From Eledone cirrhosa (taxonomy: Eukaryota): a stretch of 64,000 bases of DNA. The stretch is from NCBI GenBank assembly GCA_964016885.1, contig OZ024742.1, positions 179,738,001 through 179,802,000 of the forward strand, given 5' to 3'. This document shows positions 5,104 to 62,456 of the stretch, one piece after another. A program made the position numbers and the translations under genes. Position 1 is the stretch's first letter, and each line of letters starts with the position of its first letter. The notes under the pieces were generated by a model, which saw nothing but the letters and a program-made list of their open reading frames with translations, was not told the DNA's origin and ran no database searches.

Positions 5104-5290
5104 ATAGGAATGAGTAGGACCCCGACGGCTGAGCTCAAGCCGTTTCGACGGCTAATTCTGAGTCCGTCGAAACGGCTTGAGCTCAGCCGTCGGGGTCCTA
5201 CTCATTCCTATTACTCACTCTACTACCCTAAGTATTGAGTAATTTGGTGCGTTATGGTCCACCTGGTTCCTTACCACATTTCCCCCGTTA
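5104..5290 (+). mobile_element. Fold-back element with 3' half of a hammerhead, family HH-h
   Basis: 48-bp perfect inverted arms 5104-5151/5164-5211 containing GAAAC-GGC..GCC-GTC-GGGG; homologues at 19393, 58422, 62282. Confidence 0.7.
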
Positions 5291-5308
5291 TATATATATA
5301 TATATATA

Positions 5309-8300
5309 TCATCATCATCATCATCATCAACGTTTAACGTCCGTGTTCCACGCTTGCATGGGTTTGGACGGGGGTATTCCCACTTGAGGCAAGAGTGATT
5401 GTCTTGCTCGCATAGGACTGTCTGGCAGGTTTTCTACAGTTGGATGCCCTTCCTAACACCAACCACATTTACAGTGTGGGTCTGGGAGGTTTTTACCGTG
5501 TTGCCTACACGGCCACATTACAGCGTGGACTGTGTGTTTTTTTGTCGTGACACCTACACGATCTCATTTGTTTCGGCCTCGATGGCGCGGCACCAACATA
5601 ACTTTACATAGAACGGGGTGGTGTGGATGGGGTGGGGTGGTGGTGGTGGGACGGGGTGTATTTTGTTAGAGATGCCTACTGGCTGGAGTAGGTTTTACTA
5701 TATATTTAGGTAAGGCGGGTCTTCTCTGTTACTGAGTACCGCCAAAGGTCTCGGTCCAGTGACATTGTCTTGGAGAGGTGTAAGTGTGTGATGTCGGAGT
5801 TTATCAGCTCGTCCCAGGTTTTTCTAGGTCTGCCTATTCAGTGACTACCGTCTATCTTTATTGCCCTGCACTTTGTTATACAGCTATCGACTTTCATGCG
5901 CATCACGTGTCCATACCAACGTAGCCTTCTCTCGAGTAAACAACATCTGATCCCTCTTATCTCTAATTTTTTCCTTAGTTCGTTTATGCTTTGCCTTTCA
6001 CGTATATTACTGTTACACATCCAGCGGAGCATGCAAGCTTCGTTCCTCTCTAGTCTGCGTATATCCTCTGCACACAATGCCCAGGTCTCACTGCCATGCA
6101 GCATTGCTGTTCGTATGCAGGCATCGTACAACCTGCCTTTCATTTTTTGGGAGAACCCTTTAGCAGCTAATAGTGGTATAAGCTCTCTGAACTTTTTCCA
6201 ACCAGTTCTGACTCTAGCTACAGTACTTTCAGAGCACCCTCCCCCACTGCTGATTTTATCGCCCAGGTAACAGAAGCTGTCCACTATTTCTATAGAACCC
6301 TCTGCGCAATTGAAAGAGCTAGTATTTTGTGGGCACTAGCTGCTACTTATTGCACCAGAGCACCGGCCACATGTAAAATCTATGTTCTTAGTTAGCTTAC
6401 CTGTGATCCCACTACATCTTTTATGCACCCATACTTTGCATTTAGGACATAAAATGGAGTTTCTACCTACGCCTTTCCTACACACCGAGCACGACCATTT
6501 CCCAGAAGGGACCGCCGCCTTGTTTTCTTTCCTACAAACTAGTACTTTGGTCTTAGCCAGGTTAATTTTAAATCCTTTTGATTCTAGGCCGTGCTTCCAT
6601 GTTTGGAATTTCTTCTCTAGCTCGGCCATTGATTCCGCTATGAGTGTCAGGTCGTCTGCGTATAGGAGTTCCCATGGGCAGCCTGTCTTGAACTCCTCTG
6701 TTATAGCCTGAAGGGCAATAATAAATAGTAGTTGGCTGAGAACAGAGCCCTGATGGACGCCAACTTTTACGCTAAACTCTTCACTATATTCGTTGTTAAT
6801 TCTAACCTTGCTGACTGTTTCTTTATACATGGCTTGTATAGCCCTCACAAGCCATTCGTCAACGCCTAGTTTTCTAAGAGCCCACCAGATAATGGAGCGG
6901 GGGACTCTGTCGAAGGCTTTCTCCAAGTCGACAAAAGCTAAGTAGAGGGGTTTACCTTTAGCTAGGTACTTCTCCTGTAGTTGTCGTACTATGAAAAGAG
7001 CGTCTGTGGTACTTTTGCCTGACACAAACCCGAACTGCATTTCATCTAGGTCAATTCTCTCTCTGATTAGTTGCGCTATTACTTTTTCCGTGAACTTCAT
7101 GACCTGGTCGATTAATTTAATGCCTCTATAGTTACTCCTATCTAGGGCGTCTCCTTTACCCTTATAACAGTTAACGATGATGCTGCTATGCCAGTCCTTC
7201 GGAACAACCCCATTCTGTACGACTTGGTTAACTATGCGGGTGACCATGGTGTGTCCCACCGTGCCAGATGCCTTCAGCATCTCAGCAACTATTTCCGAAG
7301 GCCCAGCCGCCTTACCCGTCTTCATATCCTTGATTGCCTTACTTATTATACTCCCCTCGACTAACACTGCTGGTCCCTCTATTGGGTCGATATGGGGGAG
7401 ACTGTCTTTCTCCCATTTATTCTCCTCATTTAGTAGCCTTTCATAGTGACACTTCCAAGCTACCTTCTTATCAGCGTCGGTGATGGCAAGTGTGCCATCG
7501 TCATTTAGTACACACTTCTCCCCGACAATATCACGGTTTTCCTTGACGCATTGCCTAGCAATCCTGAACACCTCACGTTTTTGGTCATCGCCTTGTAGAA
7601 CATGCTTGAACTTTCTTTCCTCAGCTTCCCTTCTTGCTAAGTACACTTGTCTCCTAGCTTCCCTCCTGGCCACTTGATAGTCTTCTCTACTTCCCCCATC
7701 CCGCCATACTTTCCAAGCCTGCTTTTTGGCCTTAATTGACCCCTCCACCTTACTGTTCCACCACCATGTTACTCTCCTCCTGCCTACAGGCCTGCTCCAG
7801 CCACAGACTTCGTCTGTCGCCAACAGCAGGTTTGCTTTCAGAAATTCCCACTCTCCCTCTATATTGTCCGACTCTAAATGTTCTTCCTTACTGTCGAAAG
7901 CATCAAGTAATATGCTTTGAAATTTATTCCTGGCTGTGGGGTCCTTTAGCTTCCATATTTTTCTCCTGAGGATAGTCCTCTTCTGCTGTCGAGTACGTCT
8001 CGTCCTGACTATGAGGTCGCTAATTATCAGTCTATGTTGGGAGGTGCATTCTTCATGGGGGAGGGATTTAGTGTTTACAACAGACACTCTGTCACGTCTT
8101 CTGGTAAGGATATAATCTACCTGGCTTGTGTGTTCCCCGGATCTATAGGTGATCAGGTGATTGTCACGTTTTTTGAAGTTAGTGTTACAGATAGTTAGGT
8201 TATTTGCATCACAGAATTCCAGGATTCTGGAGCCTTCCTCATTTCTAGTACCAAACCCATAGCCTCCATGGATTTCGTCGTAGCCGTCATAATGTTGTCC

Positions 8301-8454
8301 AATGTGACCATTTAGGTCGCCTGCAATAATTATATAGTCACTGTCGGATATTTGGGAGGTAGATAGCATCAGTGTCTCATAGAATCTGTCTTTTATAGTG
8401 CCGGGCAGTCCGGATTGGGGTGCGTACGCAGATATTACTGTCACCGTAGTTCTA
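5309..8454 (-). mobile_element. RTE LINE family A, 5'-truncated (left arm of 7-kb palindrome)
   Basis: APE C-half + RT + 3'UTR + (GAT)n; in-frame stops at 6336 and 5838. Confidence 0.95.
6336..8451 (-). pseudogene. LINE ORF: APE endonuclease (partial) + reverse transcriptase + PHD-like finger
   Basis: GDLNG, SQVDYIL, SQHRL (APE); QFGF, DLEKAFD, GVHQGS, YADD (RT); the first ~27 aa of the called ORF are read-through into the spacer. Confidence 0.9.
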
Positions 8455-8464
8455 TATATATATA

Positions 8465-9148
8465 TTAGAAAGTGAGGTTTTTTTTTACAAAATGAAAAAT
8501 AACCAGCTGTCAGGGTTCTGGCCATATTCACTGAACCAGAACATTTCTCCCAATCCCTTTTCCCTTGACCACTATCTCTCCATTGTCATAACATTCACTA
8601 TAAAGACTACAGAATAGTTTTCCAAATAAGGGCGCAAAAATGTAATGAAAACTTGTTCACGTGACAGCCAAATTTCATTTACAACCAACCAAAAAAAAGC
8701 CTTCGTGAGCCTCATTTTTTCAAGTAAAAAGAAATTCAAACACTCATATATGAAAAAAAACAACCTGTGACAACCCCCCCCCCCCCCCCTCTCTTATTTG
8801 AAGAACTATTGTAACGCGAACTGGCGCGAAATTTATTATAATTATTGACAAACCAATCAAATTACTTCTCGAAAAACCTGGCTTTCGAGCCACTTTTTCC
8901 ATATAAAACAAGTAACATTTAGAGACCAACCAGATGTGAGAAAAACCACAGTTCCTCCATCTCAACTCACCTTTTGAAAAGCAGAAGAACTGCGAAACCG
9001 GTAAAGGAACCAAATAAATATATATATTTAAAAAAAAAAATAAGACTTCAGTTGCATTTTCGATTTCATCCCTTTTTCTTTATACTTCCACTAGTGTAGG
9101 ACACCTCGGTTATTTTTCATTTTGTAAAAAAAAAACCTCACTTTCTAA
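8465..9148. mobile_element. ~685-bp non-coding spacer with ~40-bp terminal inverted repeats, TA-flanked (possible MITE)
   Basis: TTAGAAAGTGAGG(T)nACAAAATGAAAAATAACC at 8465-8504 mirrored at 9108-9148. Confidence 0.5.
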
Positions 9149-9150
9149 TA

Positions 9151-12100
9151 TAGAACTACGGTGACAGTAATATCTGCGTACGCACCCCAATCCGGACTGC
9201 CCGGCACTATAAAAGACAGATTCTATGAGACACTGATGCTAACTACCTCCCAAATATCCGACAGTGACTATATAATTATTGCAGGCGACCTAAATGGTCA
9301 CGTTGGACAACATTGTGACGGCTACGACGAAATCCATGGAGGCTATGGGTTTGGTACTAGAAATGAGGAAGGCTCCAGAATCATGGAATTCTGTGATGCA
9401 AATAACCTAACTATCTGTAACACTAACTTCAAAAAACGTGACAATCACCTGATCACCTATAGATCCGGGGAACACACAAGCCAGGTAGATTATATCCTTA
9501 CCAGAAGACGTGACAGAGTGTCTGTTGTAAACACTAAATCCCTCCCCCATGAAGAATGCACCTCCCAACATAGACTGATAATTAGCGACCTCATAGTCAG
9601 GACGAGACGTACTCGACAGCAGAAGAGGACTATCCTCAGGAGAAAAATATGGAAGCTAAAGGACCCCACAGCCAGGAATAAATTTCAAAGCATATTACTT
9701 GATGCTTTCGACAGTAAGGAAGAACATTTAGAGTCGGACAATATAGAGGGAGAGTGGGAATTTCTGAAAGCAAACCTGCTGTTGGCGACAGACGAAGTCT
9801 GTGGCTGGAGCAGGCCTGTAGGCAGGAGGAGAGTAACATGGTGGTGGAACAGTAAGGTGGAGGGGTCAATTAAGGCCAAAAAGCAGGCTTGGAAAGTATG
9901 GCGGGATGGGGGAAGTAGAAAAGACTATCAAGTGGCCAGGAGGGAAGCTAGGAGACAAGTGTACTTAGCAAGAAGGGAAGCTGAGGAAAGAAAGTTCAAG
10001 CATGTTCTACAAGGCGATGACCAAAAACGTGAGGTGTTCAGGATTGCTAGGCAATGCGTCAAGGAAAACCGTGATATTGTCGGGGAGAAGTGTGTACTAA
10101 ACGACGATGGCACACTTGCCATCACCGACGCTGATAAGAAGGTAGCTTGGAAGTGTCACTATGAAAGGCTACTAAATGAGGAGAATAAATGGGAGAAAGA
10201 CAGTCTCCCCCATATCGACCCAATAGAGGGACCAGCAAGTGTTAGTCGAGGGGAGTATAATAAGTAAGGCAATCAGGGATATGAAGACGGGTAAGGCGGC
10301 TGGGCCTTCGGAAATAGTTGCTGAGATGCTGAAGGCAGCTGGCACGGTGGGACACACCATGGTCACCCGCATAGTTAACCAAGTCGTACAGAATGGGGTT
10401 GTTCCGAAGGACTGGCATAGCAGCATCATCGTTAACTGTTATAAGGGTAAAGGAGACGCCCTAGATAGGAGTAACTATAGAGGCATTAAATTAATCGACC
10501 AGGTCATGAAGGTCACGGAAAAAGTAATAGCGCAACTAATCAGAGAGAGAATTGACCTAGATGAAATGCAGTTCGGGTTTGTGTCAGGCAAAAGTACCAC
10601 AGACGCTCTTTTCATAGTACGACAACTACAGGAGAAGTACCTAGCTAAAGGTAAACCCCTCTACTTAGCTTTTGTCGACTTGGAGAAAGCCTTCGACAGA
10701 GTCCCCCACTCCATTATCTGGTGGGCTCTTAGAAAACTAGGCGTTGATGAATGGCTTGTGAGGGCTATACAAGCCATGTATAAAGAAACAGTCAGCAAGG
10801 TTAGAATTAACAACGAATATAGTGAAGAGTTTAGCGTAAAAGTTGGCGTCCATCAGGGCTCTGCTCTCAGCCCCCTACTATTTATTATTGCCCTTCAGGC
10901 TATAACAGAGGAGTTCAAGACCGGCTGCCCATGGGAACTCCTATACGCAGACGACCTGGCACTCATAGCGGAATCAATGGCCGAGCTAGAGAAGAAATTC
11001 CAAACATGGAAGCACGGCCTAGAGTCTAAAGGACTTAAAATTAACCTGGCTAAGACCAAAGTTCTAGTTTATAGGAAAGAAAACAAGGCGGCGGTCCCTT
11101 CTGGGAAATGGTCGTGCTCGGTGTGTAGGAAAGGCATAGGTAGAAACTCCATTTTATGTCCTAAATGCAAAGTATGGGTGCATAAAAGATGTAGTGGGAT
11201 CACAGGTAAGCTAACTAAGAACATAGATTTTACATGTGGCCGGTGTTCTGGTGCAATAAGTAGCAGCAAGTGCCCACAAAATACTAGCTCTTTCAATTGC
11301 GCAGAGGGTTCTATAGAAATAGTGGACAGCTTCCGTTACCTGGGCGATAAAATCAGCAGTGGGGGAGGGTGCTCTGAAAGTACAGTAGCTAGAGTCAGAA
11401 CTGTTTGGAAAAAGTTCAGAGAGCTTATACCACTATTAGCTGCTAAAGGGTTCTCCCTAAAAATGAAAGGCAGGTTGTACGATGCCTGCATACGAACAGC
11501 AATGTTGCATGGCAGCGAGACCTGGGCATTGTGTGCAGAGGATATACGCAGACTAGAGAGGAACGAAGCTTGCATGCTCCGCTGGATGTGTAACAGTAAT
11601 ATACGTGAACGGCAAAGCATAAACAAACTAAGAAAAAAATTAGAGATAAGAGGGATCAGATGTTGTTTACTCGAGAGAAGGCTACGTTGGTATGGACACG
11701 TGATGCGCATGAAAGTCGATAGCTGTATGACAAAGTGCAGGGCAATAAAGATAGACGGTAGCCACGGAATAGGCAGACCTAGAAAAACCTGGGACGAGCT
11801 GATAAACTCCGACCTCACACACTTACACCTCTCCAAGACAATGTCACTGGACCGAGACCTTTGGCGGTACTCAGTAACAGAGAAGACCCGCCTTACCTAA
11901 ATATATAGTAAAACCTACTCTAGCCAGTAGGCATCTCTAACAAAATACACCCCGTCCCACCACCACCACCCCCACCCCATCCACACCACCCCGTTCTATG
12001 TAAAGTTATGTTGGTGCCGCGCCATCCAGGCCGAAAAAACAAATGAGATCGTGTAGGTGTCACGACAAAAAAACACACAGTCCACGCTGTAATGTGGCCG

Positions 12101-12298
12101 TGTAGGCAACACGGTAAAAACCTCCCAGACCCACACTGTAAATGTGGTTGGTGTTAGGAAGGGCATCCAACTGTAGAAAACCTGCCAGACAGTCCTATGC
12201 GAGCAAGACAATCACTCTTGCCTCAAGTGGGACTACCCCCATCCAAACCCATGCAAGCGTGGAACACGGACGTTAAACGTTGATAATGATGATGATGA

Positions 12299-12302
<4 letters not shown>
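9151..12302 (+). mobile_element. RTE LINE family A, 5'-truncated (right arm of palindrome)
   Basis: ORFs 9161-10267 and 10239-11900 are one ORF broken by a +1 A near 10237; 3'UTR and (GAT)n tail. Confidence 0.95.
10239..11900 (+). pseudogene. LINE reverse transcriptase with inserted PHD-type zinc finger, open to the natural stop
   Basis: YRGIKL, QFGF, DLEKAFD, QGS, YADD, C-x2-C..C-x2-C-x4-H-x2-C..C-x2-C, YLG, RLRWYGH, GRPRKTW. Confidence 0.9.
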
Positions 12303-12371
<69 letters not shown>

Positions 12372-12399
12372 TATTAATAAAATAGATGTTCTTTTGATC

Positions 12400-12462
12400 A
12401 ATTGCATTTTATTATACATATTTCGGATGTACAACTGTACGTCCTCATCAGACAAAATATAA
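12400..12462 (-). ncRNA. Type I hammerhead ribozyme (mirror copy)
   Basis: Reverse complement of 12560-12622 with few changes. Confidence 0.75.
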
Positions 12463-12559
12463 TGATACATGACATACCCTGAGATGTTAAATGGTTAAGA
12501 TTTAATCAAGGTAGTGATTAAATCTTAACCATTTAACATCTCAGGGTATGTCATGTATC

Positions 12560-12622
12560 ATTATATTTTGTCTGATGAGGACGTACTGTTGTACATCCGA
12601 AATACGTATAATAAAATGTAAT
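12560..12622 (+). ncRNA. Type I hammerhead ribozyme (AUA site after 12610)
   Basis: ATTATATTTTGT-CTGATGA-GGACGTAC-TGTT-GTACATCC-GAA-ATACGTAT-A-ATAAAATGTAAT; 12-bp stem I, palindromic stem III. Confidence 0.85.
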
Positions 12623-12794
12623 TGATCAAAAGAACATCTATTTTATTAATACTTATATTTTAATATTAATAACTCCTGAAAATTATTTTTACGTTGAGTG
12701 CTTCCAATCTACTGTAAAAATCATTCTTTGACATAATCATCGAATATTGTTTAACATTTAATACTTATATATATATATATATGTATGTATGTAT

Positions 12795-15444: not shown

Positions 15445-15788
15445 TTCATCATCATTCATTTCATTTTACGTCCGCTTTTCCCTGCTTGCAAGGGTGGGAC
15501 GGGAACTGATTCTGGCTTGATTTCTATAGCTGGATGCCCTTCCTAACACCATCCTCATTTACAGTGAGTGCTGGGTGCTTTTTTTGCCGTGGCACCTGCA
15601 CAACCACTTTGCAGTGGAATGATATGGACCCCAGTCCCTATCATCTCATTTCTACAGCTGAGTAAACTGGAGCAATGTGAAATAAAGTGTCTTGCTCAAG
15701 GAAACAACACATCACCCAGTCTGAGAATTGAACTCACAACCTTTCGATTGCAAGGCCAATGCTCTAACCACTAAGCCATGTGCCTCCA
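15445..15788 (-). mobile_element. tRNA-derived SINE family B, chimeric RTE tail
   Basis: Head GGCACATGGCTTAGTGGTTAGAGC..GAGTTCAATTC; core TCCTTGAGCAAGACAC; RTE-type 3' end. Confidence 0.85.
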
Positions 15789-19358: not shown

Positions 19359-19392
<34 letters not shown>

Positions 19393-19397
<5 letters not shown>

Positions 19398-19590
19398 AAA
19401 ATGTTTAACCCTGACGGCAGAGCTCAAGCCGTTTCGACGGCTATTTCTGGACTCAGAAATAGCCGTCGAAACGGCTTGAGTTCTGCCGCCGGGGTTAAAC
19501 ATTTTCCTATTACCCACTCTACTACCCTAAGTATTAAGTACTCTGGTGCGTTATGGTCCATCTGGTTCCTTACCACACCTCCTTCATTAT
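19393..19590 (+). mobile_element. Fold-back half-hammerhead element, family HH-h
   Basis: 57-bp arms 19393-19449/19454-19510; same tail as 5212-5290; inside (TA)n. Confidence 0.7.
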
Positions 19591-20070
19591 ATATATATAT
19601 ACATATATATATACACACACAATATATATATATATACTCTATATATATACATATATACACACACGCACAGATAGCGAAGTCAAATTTTTTCATAATGCAG
19701 ATAGCCAGACATACAGAGACATATTATAAGGGCGTAACGGTATAGTTAGGTATCTATCTAAAAAGACAGACTAAGAAAGAGAGAGGAATGTCGTATAACC
19801 GGAAGTGTTGACATTTGAAAATTTTAAAGAAGTGAATATTTAAATAATATCTTTAATCTTTTAACCAAAGTTAGTAGACAAAAATACCCTCACTTTCTTA
19901 CTTGGAAAAAGTTACATCTATGGTGCAAATTTAGTGATGTTTGGTCCAGCCGTTTGGCGAAAGTTTGTTACATACATACGGCCGTCAGCTTTATTAGTAT
20001 AGATGTATATATATATATCATCATCATTGTTTTACTTAAATTTATATATGTATGTATATATGTATATATA

Positions 20071-20979: not shown

Positions 20980-22908
20980 GATGGATGGATGGACTGCGGA
21001 ATCCTGGAGAGTGGAGGAGAGAGAGAGAAAAATCTGGACGCTCAAGCGACAATGCCAAAGATAAAGACAAATTCACCTCTTGGACGAGAATGCGAGCACT
21101 CCTCATTGTTTCGACCGCGGACGGCTAACATAACCCCATCGCCCCCGCCCCCACCGCCCCCAACCCCCAAACGCAATCCAAAACTTCAGAGTTGGTACCA
21201 TAAATGTAGGCACCCTAAAGGGTCGCGCTAACGAGGTTGTAGAAATGCTTGAACGTAACGAGGTCGATGTTTGTTGTATTCAAGAGACCAGGTGGAGGGG
21301 TGGGTCTGCTAGGTTCATTGAGGGTAAAAAACGATGTTATAAGCTTTTCTGGGTGGGAAACGACGATGGGCTGGGTGGAGTAGGAATCATGGTAGCAGAA
21401 AAGTGGGCAGATAAGATAATAGACGTAAATAGAGTGAACGACAGAATAATTAAAATACGACTTGCCCTCAATAGAACTACGGTGACAGTAATATCTGCGT
21501 ACGCACCCCAATCCGGACTGCCCGGCACTATAAAAGACAGATTCTATGAGACACTGATGCTAACTACCTCCCAAATATCCGACAGTGACTATATAATTAT
21601 TGCAGGCGACCTAAATGGTCACGTTGGACAACATTGTGACGGCTACGACGAAATCCATGGAGGCTATGGGTTTGGTACTAGAAATGAGGAAGGCTCCAGA
21701 ATCCTGGAATTCTGTGATGCAAATAACCTAACTATCTGTAACACTAACTTCAAAAAACGTGACAATCACCTGATCACCTATAGATCCGGGGAACACACAA
21801 GCTAGGTAGATTATATCCTTACCAGAAGACGTGACAGAGTGTCTGTTGTAAACACTAAATCCCTCCCCCATGAAGAATGCACCTCCCAACATAGACTGAT
21901 AATTAGCGACCTCATAGTCAGGACGAGACGTACTCGACAGCAGAAGAGGACTATCCTCAGGAGAAAAATATGGAAGCTAAAGGACCCCACAGCCAGGAAT
22001 AAATTTCAAAGCATATTACTTGATGCTTTCGACAGTAAGGAAGAACATTTAGAGTCGGACAATATAGAGGGAGAGTGGGAATTTCTGAAAGCAAACCTGC
22101 TGTTGGCGACAGACGAAGCCTGTGGCTGGAGCAGGCCTGTAGGCAGGAGGAGAGAAACATGGTGGTGGAACAGTAAGGTGGAGGGGTCAATTAAGGCCAA
22201 AAAGCAGGCTTGGAAAGTATGGCGGGATGGGGGAAGTAGAAAAGACTATCAAGTGGCCAGGAGGGAAGCTAGGAGACAAGTGTACTTAGCAAGAAGGGAA
22301 GCTGAGGAAAGAAAGTTCAAGCATGTTCTACAACGCGATGACCAAAAACGTGAGGTGTTCAGGATTGCTAGACAATGCGTCAAGGAAAACCGTGATATTG
22401 TCGGGGAGAAGTGTGTACTAAACGACGATGGCACACTTGCCATCACCGACGCTGATAAGAAGGTAGCTTGGAAGTGTCACTATGAAAGGCTACTAAATGA
22501 GGAGAATAAATGGGAGAAAGACAGTCTCCCCCATATCGACCCAATAGAGGGACCAGCAGTGTTAGTCGAGGGGAGTATAATAAGTAAGGCAATCAAGGAT
22601 ATGAAGACGGTTATGTTGGTGCCGCGCCATCCAGGCCGAAACAAATGAGATCGTGTAGGTGTCATGACAAAAAAACACACAGTCCACGCTGTAATGTGGC
22701 CGTGTAGGCAACACGGTAAAAACCTCCCAGACCCACACTGTAAATGTGGTTGGTGTTAGGAAGGGCATCCAACTGTAGAAAACCTGCCAGACAGTCCTAT
22801 GCGAGCAAGACAATCACTCTTGCCTCAAGTGGGACTACCCCCGTCCAAACCCATGCAAGCGTGGAACACGGACGTTAAACGTTGATGATGATGATGATGA
22901 TGATGATA
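20980..22908 (+). mobile_element. RTE LINE family A with intact 5' region but RT removed (22610/22611 junction)
   Basis: ATG 21052, frameshift in C-rich run, FRVGTINVGTL..CCIQETRW APE start, stop at 21803; joins directly to 3'UTR and (GAT)n; 5' boundary approximate. Confidence 0.9.
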
Positions 22909-22917
22909 TATATATAT

Positions 22918-46074: not shown

Positions 46075-46336
46075 TTTATCCTGGGTTCAATAGGGGGTGA
46101 CCACAGTAAGTAAGGTACTCAATACATAGCAGAGTATAAATATTTGATATAAAAATGACTTCTACAAGGCTAGAACTGTTTCATTCGGCAGAAATCATCA
46201 GGAAGCCAACTGTACAAGTAATATGGTGGTATTTATAAATACCACCATATTACTTGGACAGTTGATTTCCTGATGATTTCTCCCAAATGAAACAGTTTTA
46301 GTCCTGTAGAAGAGAAGCCATTTCTATATTAAATAT
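46075..46336. mobile_element. Palindromic hammerhead element, family HH-d
   Basis: ~95-bp arms around 46235/46236 with no loop; second truncated fold-back relative at 46345-46532; TA-flanked. Confidence 0.75.
46157..46207 (-). ncRNA. Type I hammerhead ribozyme (GUA site); mirror copy on plus at ~46264-46312
   Basis: GGCTTC-CTGATGA-TTTC-TGCC-GAAT-GAAA-CAG-TTCTAGCC-TTG-TA-GAAGTC. Confidence 0.75.
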
Positions 46337-46559
46337 ATATATATAATATGTAGATTCTCAAGCTGTGGCAGTCACTCACAGTTAAAATAAGTACTCAATA
46401 TGAATTGGTAGTGTATAGGAATCTTTTTATATATATAAAAATTATATATATATATAGAAAGGACTTCCACAAGACTAGAACTGTTTCATTCATATGAAAT
46501 CATTTCATACAGTCCTAGTCCTGTAGAAGACATATATAAATATATATATATATATATAC

Positions 46560-57247: not shown

Positions 57248-57594
57248 TCATCATCATCATCATCATCATCTTTTACGTCCACTTTTCCCTGCTTGCAAGG
57301 GTGGGACGGGAACTGATTCTGGCTTGATTTCTACAGCTGGATGCCCTTCCTAACACCAACCTCATTTACAGTGAGTGCTGGGTGCTATTTTGCCGTGGCA
57401 CCTCCACGACCAATTTGCAGTGGAATGATATGGACCCCAGTCCCTATCATCTCATTTCTGCAGCTGAGTAAACTGGAGCAATGTGAAATAAAGTGTCTTG
57501 CTCAAGGACACAATACATCACCCAGTCTGAGAATTGAACTCACAACCTTTCGATTGCAAGCCCAATGCTCTAACCACTAAGCCATGTGCCTCCA
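57248..57594 (-). mobile_element. SINE family B, chimeric tail
   Basis: As 15445-15788. Confidence 0.85.
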
Positions 57595-58421: not shown

Positions 58422-58562
58422 CAGTCCAGAAATAGCCATCGAAACGGCTTGAGCTCTGCCGTCGGGGTCATACTTTTTCCTATAACCCACTCTACTACCC
58501 TAAGTATTGAGTACTCTGGTGCATTATGGTCCATCTGCTTCCTTACCACAACTCCTTCGTTA
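58422..58562 (+). mobile_element. Family HH-h truncated copy without mirror arm
   Basis: AGTCCAGAAATAGCCATCGAAACGGC..GCCGTCGGGG + shared tail; in TA tract. Confidence 0.7.
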
Positions 58563-58984
58563 TATATATATATATATATGGATTTATTTATTATTAATAG
58601 AGATTATAAGTTTATGCAATGAATTTCCTTAAGCAGGATCATCTGGGATGAAAGCAGAAATTTATTGCTTACACTTTTAATCTGTACTAATAATAAATAT
58701 TTGCTCTATGGGTTTATATATACTTATATGTATATACAACCTTTATTTTGGTCTTTGTACTTATTATTACTATACATAATAGACATACAAGAATGTCGCT
58801 GGGAATTTTTTTAAAGGCTGCGATCATCAGAAAGCTATTTCTAGATCTTTATCTATCATTAGTGACCCACGTGCTACTGAGACAAAAGAGGGTAAAAGCT
58901 ATATGGTTTCTACATGTGAAACAGAGGCTGGAAATGCTAATTTGCATATAGTGCAAACTTGACTGGTGGCACTAACATAGTGTA

Positions 58985-61907: not shown

Positions 61908-62189
61908 ATATCACAGAAAAAAAAGAGAATCAGTGTTGCGACGAATGAAATTTATTGGACATATTACAATCGTTTCTCTGGCGACCAGCTCGAGGCACGA
62001 TTGATGTAATGATCGAACCTGGAAAATCTGCTTCGTAGAATCAAGACGTATCTGAGGACCTTGCGATTTTCAGAGTCAGGTTCGATCATTACATCAATCG
62101 TGCCTCGAGCTGGTCGCCAGAGAAACGATTGTAATATGTCCAATAAATTCCATTCGTCGCAACACTGATTCTCTTTTTTTCTGTGATAT
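61908..62189. mobile_element. Fold-back hammerhead element, family HH-g
   Basis: ~114-bp arms 61908-62021/62077-62189; AATAAA at 62142; ends in (TA)n. Confidence 0.75.
62045..62140 (+). ncRNA. Type I hammerhead with 63-nt stem II domain (GUA site)
   Basis: GACGTAT-CTGAGGA-[CCTTGCGATT..GGTCGCCAGA]-GAAA-CGATTG-TA-ATATGTC. Confidence 0.65.
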
Positions 62190-62201
62190 ATATATATCTT
62201 G

Positions 62202-62269
<68 letters not shown>

Positions 62270-62362
62270 CAAGATAGATTCAGTAAGAAACTGGTTAGAC
62301 CATTACTCACCAAAGTACTTGATACTTGAGGTAGTAGATTATGGTTATATGAAAGAGTCAGA

Positions 62363-62456
62363 ACCACGACGGCTGAGCTCTTGCCGTTTCAACAGCTAGA
62401 TCCAGACTGACTTGCAGATGTGTTATCGGTGGAAGAACTGTTTCATCAGGGGATAT
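62363..62456 (-). ncRNA. Type I hammerhead with 52-nt stem II domain (GUC site); full form of family HH-h (element from ~62282)
   Basis: TCCC-CTGATGA-AACAGTT..AGCTGTT-GAAA-CGGC-AAGAGCTCA-GCCG-TC-GTGG. Confidence 0.7.

What the first reader, a model, noticed from the sequence alone, without database searches (positions are those of the whole stretch)
5309..12302. 7-kb palindrome: two identically truncated RTE LINEs head-to-head around a TIR-like spacer
Seen: both 3.1-kb arms stop at the same TA (CAA|TAGAACTACGG in the intact copy at 21472). The mirror symmetry continues about 40 bp into the 685-bp spacer and ends outward at (TA)n. The arms carry different inactivating mutations (stops at 6336/5838 vs frameshift at ~10237), so this is not a simple read-duplication artefact. 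Independent identical 5' truncation is implausible. Inference: either a TA-targeting DNA transposon inserted in a LINE and underwent alternative (sister-chromatid) transposition, or a fold-back replication event copied 9108-12302. Read-through would give ~3 kb of dsRNA against a young LINE family (siRNA or ADAR substrate).
Basis: partly seen in the sequence, partly recalled or inferred. Interest (0 to 1): 0.7.

Follow-up and report, generated by a model that had tools for sequence, protein, structure and literature searches.

The report
Two-parent LINE palindrome around Penelope end
This 7-kb mirror-image stretch is real, but its centre is the end of a Penelope-type jumping gene, not a DNA transposon, and its two LINE arms come from different parent copies on the outside while sharing a copied inner part, likely because a newly inserting LINE switched to its neighbour as template, a kind of accident already described for human LINE-1.

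Summary
The palindrome is there: arms 5309-8464 and 9149-12302, 41 substitutions in 3126 bp, same 5' junction. The spacer is not a TIR transposon. It is the last 631 bp of a high-copy Penelope-like element (RT plus GIY-YIG upstream in other copies), and 0 of 29 other copies carry the second end. The arms are mosaics. Inside, they share a base found nowhere else in the genome (2 hits against 1872). Outside, they carry alleles of different RTE subfamilies (AU p=0.003). The mirrored 40 bp lie within the Penelope tail, which 32 of 33 other head-to-head doublets carry on one side only, so they were copied from the right end. Best reading (0.45): a second RTE cDNA, primed in the left (TA)n, switched onto the resident right arm and copied its inner part, junction and tail. 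One single-duplication model needs later overwriting of both outer parts. Reads were inconclusive; dsRNA is untested. The scan noted Penelope doublets and one Penelope-RTE fusion in this genome before, but no two-parent palindrome. A single fossil event, a variant of known LINE template switching.

The parts
5289..5309 (.). (TA)n at the outer end of the left arm; inferred primer site of the left cDNA
   Evidence: sequence; mirror ends here
5310..6732 (-). Outer part of the left RTE arm (3' tail, 3' UTR, C-terminal ORF), subfamily 'A' alleles at 6732, 6543, 6360, 5580; stops at 6336-6338 and 5838-5840
6733..7591 (-). Zone within which the left arm changes from its own parent to the tract shared with the right arm (no informative site to narrow it)
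7592..8454 (-). Inner part of the left RTE arm, shared with the right arm; private base at 7592 mirrors 10013
8453..8464 (.). Left TA junction (12 bp)
8465..8504 (-). Inverted copy of the last 40 bp of the Penelope-like tail (A9 run)
8503..8518 (-). 16-bp inverted piece matching (15 of 16) the Penelope sequence across the start of the main arm, including 12 nt that are no longer present upstream; 2-bp overlap with the tail copy, 1-bp overlap with the main arm
8518..9148 (+). 5'-truncated Penelope-like element: last 631 bp, with the short end at about 9084 and the 64-bp tail 9085-9148; 5 substitutions in 626 bp from the majority of 29 copies
9149..9152 (.). Right TA junction (4 bp)
9150..10113 (+). 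Inner part of the right RTE arm (partial APE domain); private 10013G; lacks subfamily B alleles at 9676 and 9752; 9920A shared with the third copy
10114..12302 (+). Middle and outer right RTE arm: +A frameshift at 10237, RT and PHD-like finger, subfamily 'B2' alleles at 10922, 11384, 11505, 11633, 11729, 11762, 11814, (GAT)n tail
12301..12369 (.). (TA)n at the outer end of the right arm
21036..22917 (+). Third copy of the RTE family, internally deleted and with a stop; reference for the truncation point; shares the rare 9920A with the right arm (start approximate)

Best explanation
The spacer is a truncated Penelope-like element and the arms are two RTE LINEs whose outer parts come from different subfamilies and whose inner parts are copies of each other, likely because a second LINE's cDNA switched onto the resident right arm while inserting. 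Shown: the Penelope identity of the spacer, the different outer parentage, the shared inner tract, and the tail copy that ordinary Penelope doublets do not make. Inferred order: (1) the Penelope piece inserted in (TA)n; (2) an RTE inserted in the TA behind its tail, truncated at TA|GAAC, and later gained 10013G; (3) a subfamily-A RTE primed reverse transcription on the + strand (TA)n at 5289-5309; (4) after 1.4-2.3 kb the cDNA moved to the sense strand of the right arm (its DNA, or a read-through RNA), copied its inner part, the TA and 40 nt of tail; (5) it jumped by an imperfect ~10-nt match to the start of the Penelope piece, copied 16 nt and was joined to that start, with at least 12 nt lost; (6) a further small exchange must explain why the right arm lacks two inner alleles of its own subfamily. 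The structure has no function shown; it is a fossil of one insertion accident.
For: Spacer: 2469 candidates in the genome; 29 of 29 other copies examined end in CTCACTTTCTAA|TA and 0 of 29 have the mirrored end; RT (PF00078, E 7.8e-7, 29.4 bits, just under the 29.6 cut-off) and GIY-YIG (PF01541, E 2.1e-7) upstream in L042. Shared inner tract: the 30-mer with 10013G has 2 hits, both arms, against 1872 with C; the Penelope/TA/RTE junction has 2 hits, both arms; arm differences 6/964 inner, 7/760 middle, 28/1407 outer (inner vs outer p=0.007, borders chosen after seeing the data). Different outer parents: each arm ranks 74th and 76th of 83 as the other's neighbour; AU test rejects one clade, p=0.0026. 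Direction: 32 of 33 other head-to-head doublets have the tail on one side only, and the exception runs on into a tandem copy; the left arm lacks 9280C, which 9 of 9 subfamily-A copies carry; both tail copies have a longer A run (10 and 9) than the 8 of 24 of 28 other copies. Polarity: the + strand from 5309 to 8518 reads LINE 3' to 5', as a first-strand cDNA does (sequence). Precedent: growing L1 cDNA pairing with nearby homologous DNA (bioRxiv 10.1101/2024.08.27.596794, passages); template switching, two-RNA inserts and foldbacks made by L1 (PMC11702581, passages).
Against: The right arm lacks 9676A (17 of 17 subfamily-B copies have it) and 9752C (18 of 19), which points to transfer left-to-right or to a third parent. 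The right arm has 9920A and the left does not, although 9920 lies inside the copied tract; only 4 young copies among 19 genome hits carry it, one being the third copy 12 kb away. 9280 is a CpG site, so the left arm could have lost the C by decay. Only one private base is shared. Mosaic copies occur elsewhere in the family (3 of 17 in the 'rest' group carry the inner B alleles). My sample of copies was enriched for the nearest relatives of each arm. The sequence cannot tell switching during insertion from switching during later repair. None of the 6 other head-to-head RTE pairs examined shares a 5' end, so this is a single case.
Confidence: 0.45

Rival explanations
1. Two RTEs inserted separately on either side of the Penelope piece, and a later replication or repair strand switched from the left arm to the right arm, copying the inner part, junction and tail (quasi-palindrome template switching or patchy arm-to-arm conversion).
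For: Identity rises towards the centre. Transfer looks two-way (9280 one way, 9676 and 9752 the other), as repeated patches would give. Head-to-head RTE neighbours of different subfamilies are common (6 of 12 chosen neighbourhoods). Template switching homogenises inverted-repeat arms in yeast (PMC8604942, abstract; for short repeats).
Against: Needs one more step than the best reading. The new junction on the Penelope side has only 1-10 nt of homology. Private-mutation loads of inner and outer parts are similar within noise, so copying came soon after insertion.
Confidence: 0.22
2. One fold-back repair or replication event duplicated the whole right unit (tail, TA, 3.1-kb RTE) in inverted form, and both outer parts were later overwritten by copies of subfamilies A and B2.
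For: Both inner parts are neither A nor B at the informative sites, as one third parent would give. The 16-bp inverted piece resembles fold-back inserts of 5-34 bp at yeast breaks (PMC11724301, abstract). RTE 3' ends lie in (TA)n, the family's own target.
Against: Needs two independent overwritings; 28 differences in the outer 1407 bp include 11 subfamily-linked alleles; AU p=0.0026.
Confidence: 0.15
3. A chimeric Penelope-RTE transcript from a source locus was reverse transcribed from both ends of one cut in (TA)n, as Penelope doublets are, giving both arms at once.
For: Both heads end within about 13 nt of each other. Head-to-head doublets are the norm for this Penelope family (17 pairs among the first 100 of 608 hits, counted by eye). 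A truncated RTE has been re-copied with its truncation elsewhere (L214/L215, 99.66% over 3199 bp).
Against: No source locus: the junction and 10013G each occur only here. The outer parts differ in parentage. 0 of 16 doublets have a mirrored flank contiguous with the junction.
Confidence: 0.1
4. Assembly artefact: a haplotype mis-join or fold-back read.
For: Highly repetitive, (TA)n-bounded region; no read or contig spanning the junctions could be shown.
Against: Arms differ at 41 sites and in TA length; alleles of one insertion would share subfamily alleles; outer flanks are not mirrored; the centre has an ordered 16-bp templated piece.
Confidence: 0.05
5. A TA-targeting DNA transposon with terminal inverted repeats inserted in a LINE and underwent alternative transposition.
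For: 40-bp inverted ends flanked by TA at this one locus.
Against: 0 of 29 other copies have both ends; 26 of 29 continue upstream in the same sequence, which leads to RT and GIY-YIG, and 3 are joined to inverted pieces of the same element.
Confidence: 0.01

Closest known systems
Endonuclease-bearing Penelope-like elements with inverted 5' copy and one-sided tail (PMC8557442 passages; PMC3846280 passages; PMC11167929 part 1 of 4)
   Same: RT followed by GIY-YIG, tandem and head-to-head copies, 5' truncation, (TA)n targets, a tail on one side only, 3' end inside the pLTR-ORF junction.
   Different: The tail is 64 bp rather than 30-40 bp. At this locus the tail end is on both sides and the mirror runs 3.1 kb into a neighbouring LINE, which ordinary doublets of this family do not show (32 of 33; 0 of 16).
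L1 templated insertions, two-RNA inserts and foldback junctions (bioRxiv 10.1101/2024.08.27.596794 passages; PMC11702581 passages)
   Same: cDNA leaving its RNA for nearby homologous DNA, inverted duplication at the insertion site, end-to-end joining by microhomology.
   Different: Here an RTE in an animal germ line, with 0.9-1.7 kb copied from an inverted neighbour of the same family; the templated inserts in the tumour passage were typically under 250 bp. Inferred from a fossil, not observed.
Inverted-repeat arm homogenisation and fold-back inserts at breaks in yeast (PMC8604942 abstract; PMC11724301 abstract)
   Same: Identity highest near the spacer; a short inverted templated piece at the joint.
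   Different: Those events span tens of bases; here about 1 kb and a new junction were transferred.
RTE-type non-LTR retrotransposons
   Same: One ORF of about 1,050 aa with APE and RT, short tandem 3' tail.
   Different: Clade placement by tree was not run; a PHD-like finger follows the RT.

Membership tests
TIR DNA transposon / MITE (spacer) | Inverted termini at both ends in other copies | tested here: not met
   0 of 29 other copies
TIR DNA transposon / MITE (spacer) | Parent encodes a transposase, not an RT | tested here: not met
   Upstream frames are RT and GIY-YIG
EN+ Penelope-like element (spacer) | RT with C-terminal GIY-YIG endonuclease | tested here: met
   PF00078 E 7.8e-7 (29.4 bits, cut-off 29.6) and PF01541 E 2.1e-7 in L042; frameshifted copy, GIY-YIG scored on the tandem partial copy
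EN+ Penelope-like element (spacer) | Tandem pLTR and inverted 5'-truncated copy | tested here: met
   L042 and L044 tandem; 33 of 45 loci examined have a head-to-head pair
EN+ Penelope-like element (spacer) | One-sided tail | tested here: met
   32 of 33 doublets; 18 of 18 among those not chosen by likeness to the spacer
EN+ Penelope-like element (spacer) | Hammerhead ribozyme in the pLTR | tested here: not met
   No hammerhead among Rfam matches in 8 loci; no CTGAnGA...GAAA core in the L042 unit. Some PLE clades lack one (PMC8557442).
Neptune/Nematis clade | CX2-5CxxC motif between RT and EN | tested here: met
   CGRSNCGTC in the translation; motif definition from PMC8557442
Neptune/Nematis clade | Placement in an RT tree | not tested
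   No reference sequences fetched
Ordinary Penelope head-to-head doublet (this locus) | Second arm ends at the short end, without tail | tested here: not met
   The left piece is the last 40 bp of the tail
RTE-type LINE (arms) | Single ORF with APE and RT | tested here: met
   PF14529, PF03372, PF00078; one open frame of 1030-1158 codons in 8 of 12 long copies
RTE-type LINE (arms) | Short tandem-repeat 3' tail | tested here: met
   (GAT)n in 28 of 30 loci; one ends in poly(A), one at a contig end
RTE-type LINE (arms) | RT groups with the RTE clade | not tested
   No reference RTs fetched
Single inverted duplication | Arms are each other's closest relatives over their whole length | tested here: not met
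   Outer 1.36 kb: AU p=0.0026; inner tract: the left arm's nearest copy is the right arm, 1st of 33
Hairpin-RNA / endo-siRNA locus | Transcript through both arms, small RNAs or editing | not testable with these tools
   No suitable RNA data was available to lay

The most novel reading that the evidence does not exclude
The Penelope end acts as a promoter for the truncated RTE behind it; an incoming RTE reverse transcriptase switches from its own mRNA to that local read-through RNA and writes a kilobase-scale inverted duplication into the germ line. Truncated RTE copies bounded by (TA)n would then spread with their truncation (as L214/L215 suggest), so that two (TA)n-targeting retroelement classes together make long hairpin loci against a young LINE family.
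Probability: 0.15. Interest if true: 0.65.

Novelty: new variant of a known kind. Interest (0 to 1): 0.4.

Why it matters
It is a rare germ-line record in which subfamily alleles let one see a LINE palindrome built from two parent copies with a copied core. That extends cDNA template switching onto a neighbour, described for L1 in cells and tumours, to an RTE, and warns that 'identical truncation' need not mean one duplication. If transcribed through, the locus could form about 3 kb of duplex (2984 bp in perfect runs of 21 or more) against a family with many open frames; that is untested. As a single event with no shown function its weight is modest.

Tried and rejected
Reads: no RNA holder listed. 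Contigs of X1, X2, X3, X4, X6 and RAD reads X24 were laid on the centre; no listed piece bridged a locus-specific junction, the lists were cut, and a hole proves nothing, so they count neither way. Hammerhead in the spacer family: none found; Rfam on the window gave two weak tRNA matches only. A truncation hotspot at about -625 of the Penelope end, suggested by L010, L013, L022 and L025, was dropped: 0 of 30 position-ordered copies ended between -621 and -645. An apparent shared +A at 10238 between the right arm and the third copy was a gap-placement artefact. 9920A as a marker of a private lineage was dropped: 15 of 19 hits are older subfamilies. Rows left out: 3 self hits and 4 repeated loci; 4 older copies under 96.5% identity; 1 of 17 doublets not fetched; 12 of 45 loci without a pair in view. 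Literature: searches (0 papers) listed no report of a two-parent RTE palindrome around a Penelope end, judged from listings only; most subscription papers are not held, and a recalled paper on L1 intermediates was not held. bioRxiv supplements were not seen. A word search of earlier scan notes gave nothing. PMC13282606 (passages) had no mention of palindromes; it was read on an untested guess about the animal group.

Full report
Observation. Self-alignment gives one inverted match, 5289-8511 against 12321-9100, 98.2% over 3230 columns. The LINE parts differ at 41 of 3126 sites. Both start at TA|GAACTACGG, preceded by 12 bp (left) and 4 bp (right) of TA, then by 40/41 bp of mirrored spacer. Outward the mirror stops in (TA)n. 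The third copy at about 21036-22917 is deleted and has a stop, so it is not intact. The arms encode part of an APE domain, an RT and a PHD-like finger; 8 of 12 long copies elsewhere keep one open frame of 1030-1158 codons, so the family is young.

The spacer. It belongs to a family with 2469 candidate places. All 29 other copies examined end in CTCACTTTCTAA followed by TA, and none has this end on the left; 26 continue upstream in a common sequence. That sequence reaches about 4.9 kb and encodes an RT and a GIY-YIG endonuclease with a CX4CxxC linker. Copies are 5'-truncated, tandem or head-to-head; 17 head-to-head pairs and no tail-to-tail pair lie among the first 100 of 608 exact hits (counted by eye). 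This is the published anatomy of endonuclease-bearing Penelope-like elements (PMC8557442, PMC3846280, passages). The TIR-transposon reading is refuted.

The mirrored 40 bp are not an ordinary second Penelope arm. Of 45 loci examined, 33 had a head-to-head pair with both ends in view; in 32 one arm ends at the long end and the other 64-71 bp short of it, and the exception runs on into a tandem copy. Among the 18 pairs not chosen by likeness to the spacer the rule held 18 times. Here both sides carry the long end, and the left piece lies wholly inside the tail. None of 16 doublets fetched with flanks has a mirrored flank contiguous with the junction (two have mirrored repeats starting 755 bp or more away; one had under 1 kb of flank). 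The left piece is followed by 16 bp (8503-8518) that match, inverted, the Penelope sequence across the start of the main arm, including 12 nt now missing. So a strand copied the right end, jumped about 580 nt by an imperfect 10-nt match, and was joined to the start of its template. The jump and the join are inferred.

The arms are mosaics. Against 84-86 other copies the arms share one non-majority base, 10013G. Its 30-mer has 2 hits in 3 Gb, the two arms, against 1872 for the C form; the junction too occurs only here. That is copying between the arms or from a source that is absent from the assembly. From 10874 outward the left arm carries alleles of one subfamily (10874A, 11063A, 11246C, 12027G) and the right arm those of another (10922C, 11384A, 11505T, 11633A, 11729G, 11762C, 11814C). 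In a tree of the outer 1.36 kb they fall in different supported clades and the AU test rejects their union (p=0.0026); in the inner tract the left arm's nearest copy is the right arm (1st of 33), while the left ranks 5th of 33 for the right. Differences rise from 6/964 to 7/760 to 28/1407 (p=0.007 inner vs outer). Caveats: the borders were set after seeing the data, and the sample is enriched for relatives of each arm.

Direction is not fully settled. The tail rule and the missing 9280C (9 of 9 subfamily-A copies have it; a CpG site) make the left arm the recipient. But the right arm lacks 9676A (17 of 17) and 9752C (18 of 19) of its own subfamily, and has 9920A, which the left lacks and the third copy shares. 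At least one further small exchange, or a third parent for the inner tract, is needed under every model.

Is identical truncation possible by chance? Three other loci stop at the same TA, against 1657 that read through, and an older copy does too (L145). That is about 0.2%: rare, and it cannot give the shared base or the tail copy. Two of the three (L214, L215) are 99.66% identical over 3199 bp on different chromosomes with unlike flanks: a truncated copy was re-copied with its truncation. None of 6 other head-to-head RTE pairs shares a 5' end.

Mechanism. The + strand from 5309 to 8518 has the polarity of a first-strand cDNA primed in (TA)n, the usual target of this family. The simplest history is a second RTE cDNA that, 1.4-2.3 kb in, moved to the resident right arm and copied through its junction into the tail (0.45). 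Later template switching from a shorter resident left copy gives the same product (0.22). One fold-back of the whole unit needs two later overwritings (0.15); a double-primed chimeric RNA needs a lost source (0.10); artefact 0.05; DNA transposon 0.01. The spacer (5 of 626 from the majority) and the arms (0.6-0.8%) are of similar age, so the steps followed each other closely.

Known parallels. L1 cDNA pairing with nearby homologous DNA, two-RNA inserts and foldbacks are described in tumours and cells (passages). Arm homogenisation and short fold-back inserts are described in yeast (abstracts). My searches (listings only) showed no report of this combination. Earlier scan notes on this genome describe Penelope doublets, a Penelope-RTE fusion and a TA-centred fold-back; I read them after reaching the Penelope reading, and tested only the doublet and tail rule myself.

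Verdict. Real, most likely a single insertion accident; a new variant of a known kind; no function shown and hairpin RNA untested. Interest 0.4.

Noticed in passing
L214:3345-6542 and L215:4883-8080 (G000 C2 385.94 Mb, C3 289.22 Mb): Twin RTE copies truncated at the same TA|GAAC site, 99.66% identical with the same private variants, on different chromosomes; identity stops in the flanking (TA)n. Re-retrotransposition of a truncated copy or DNA capture between TA tracts.
   Followed up: partly
window 21036-22917: Third RTE copy with a 1.7-kb internal deletion; shares 9920A with the right arm, one of only 4 young copies among 19 hits. Possible local conversion.
   Followed up: partly
window 12357-12666 and 46135-46341: Short palindromes in (TA)n with a hammerhead-like CTGATGA...GAAA core in each arm (motif scan; not found by Rfam at gathering score); likely ends of other Penelope-type families.
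   Followed up: partly
window 5104-5211 and 61908-62189: Further short palindromes beside (TA)n; the first belongs to a repeat also at 19362-19608, 58427-58579 and 62246-62398.
   Followed up: no
L249-L264, L229, L248: Strict asymmetry of Penelope doublets: one arm ends 64-71 bp short of the other in 18 of 18 unselected pairs; the tail is longer than the 30-40 bp in print.
   Followed up: yes
L010, L019, L036: Three short inverted Penelope arms stop at the same inner point (-186/-187 from the end).
   Followed up: no
L053-L142: RTE 5' truncation points recur at AT-rich sites (9458, 9678, 9741/9742, 10775 in window coordinates); L071 and L082 join the 5' leader to internal sites at short homologies.
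   Followed up: partly
L143:382-5170: Head-to-head RTE pair, 99% alike, with different 5' ends and subfamily alleles but one shared CpG variant (11480T).
   Followed up: partly
L217/L218 (C1 341.69 and 342.44 Mb): At least 10-kb duplication at 98-99% that includes an RTE copy; segmental duplication or haplotype copy.
   Followed up: no
window 15717-15780 and 57523-57586: Weak tRNA matches on the - strand within a repeat also at 15511-15614 and 57318-57420; possibly tRNA-derived SINE heads.
   Followed up: no
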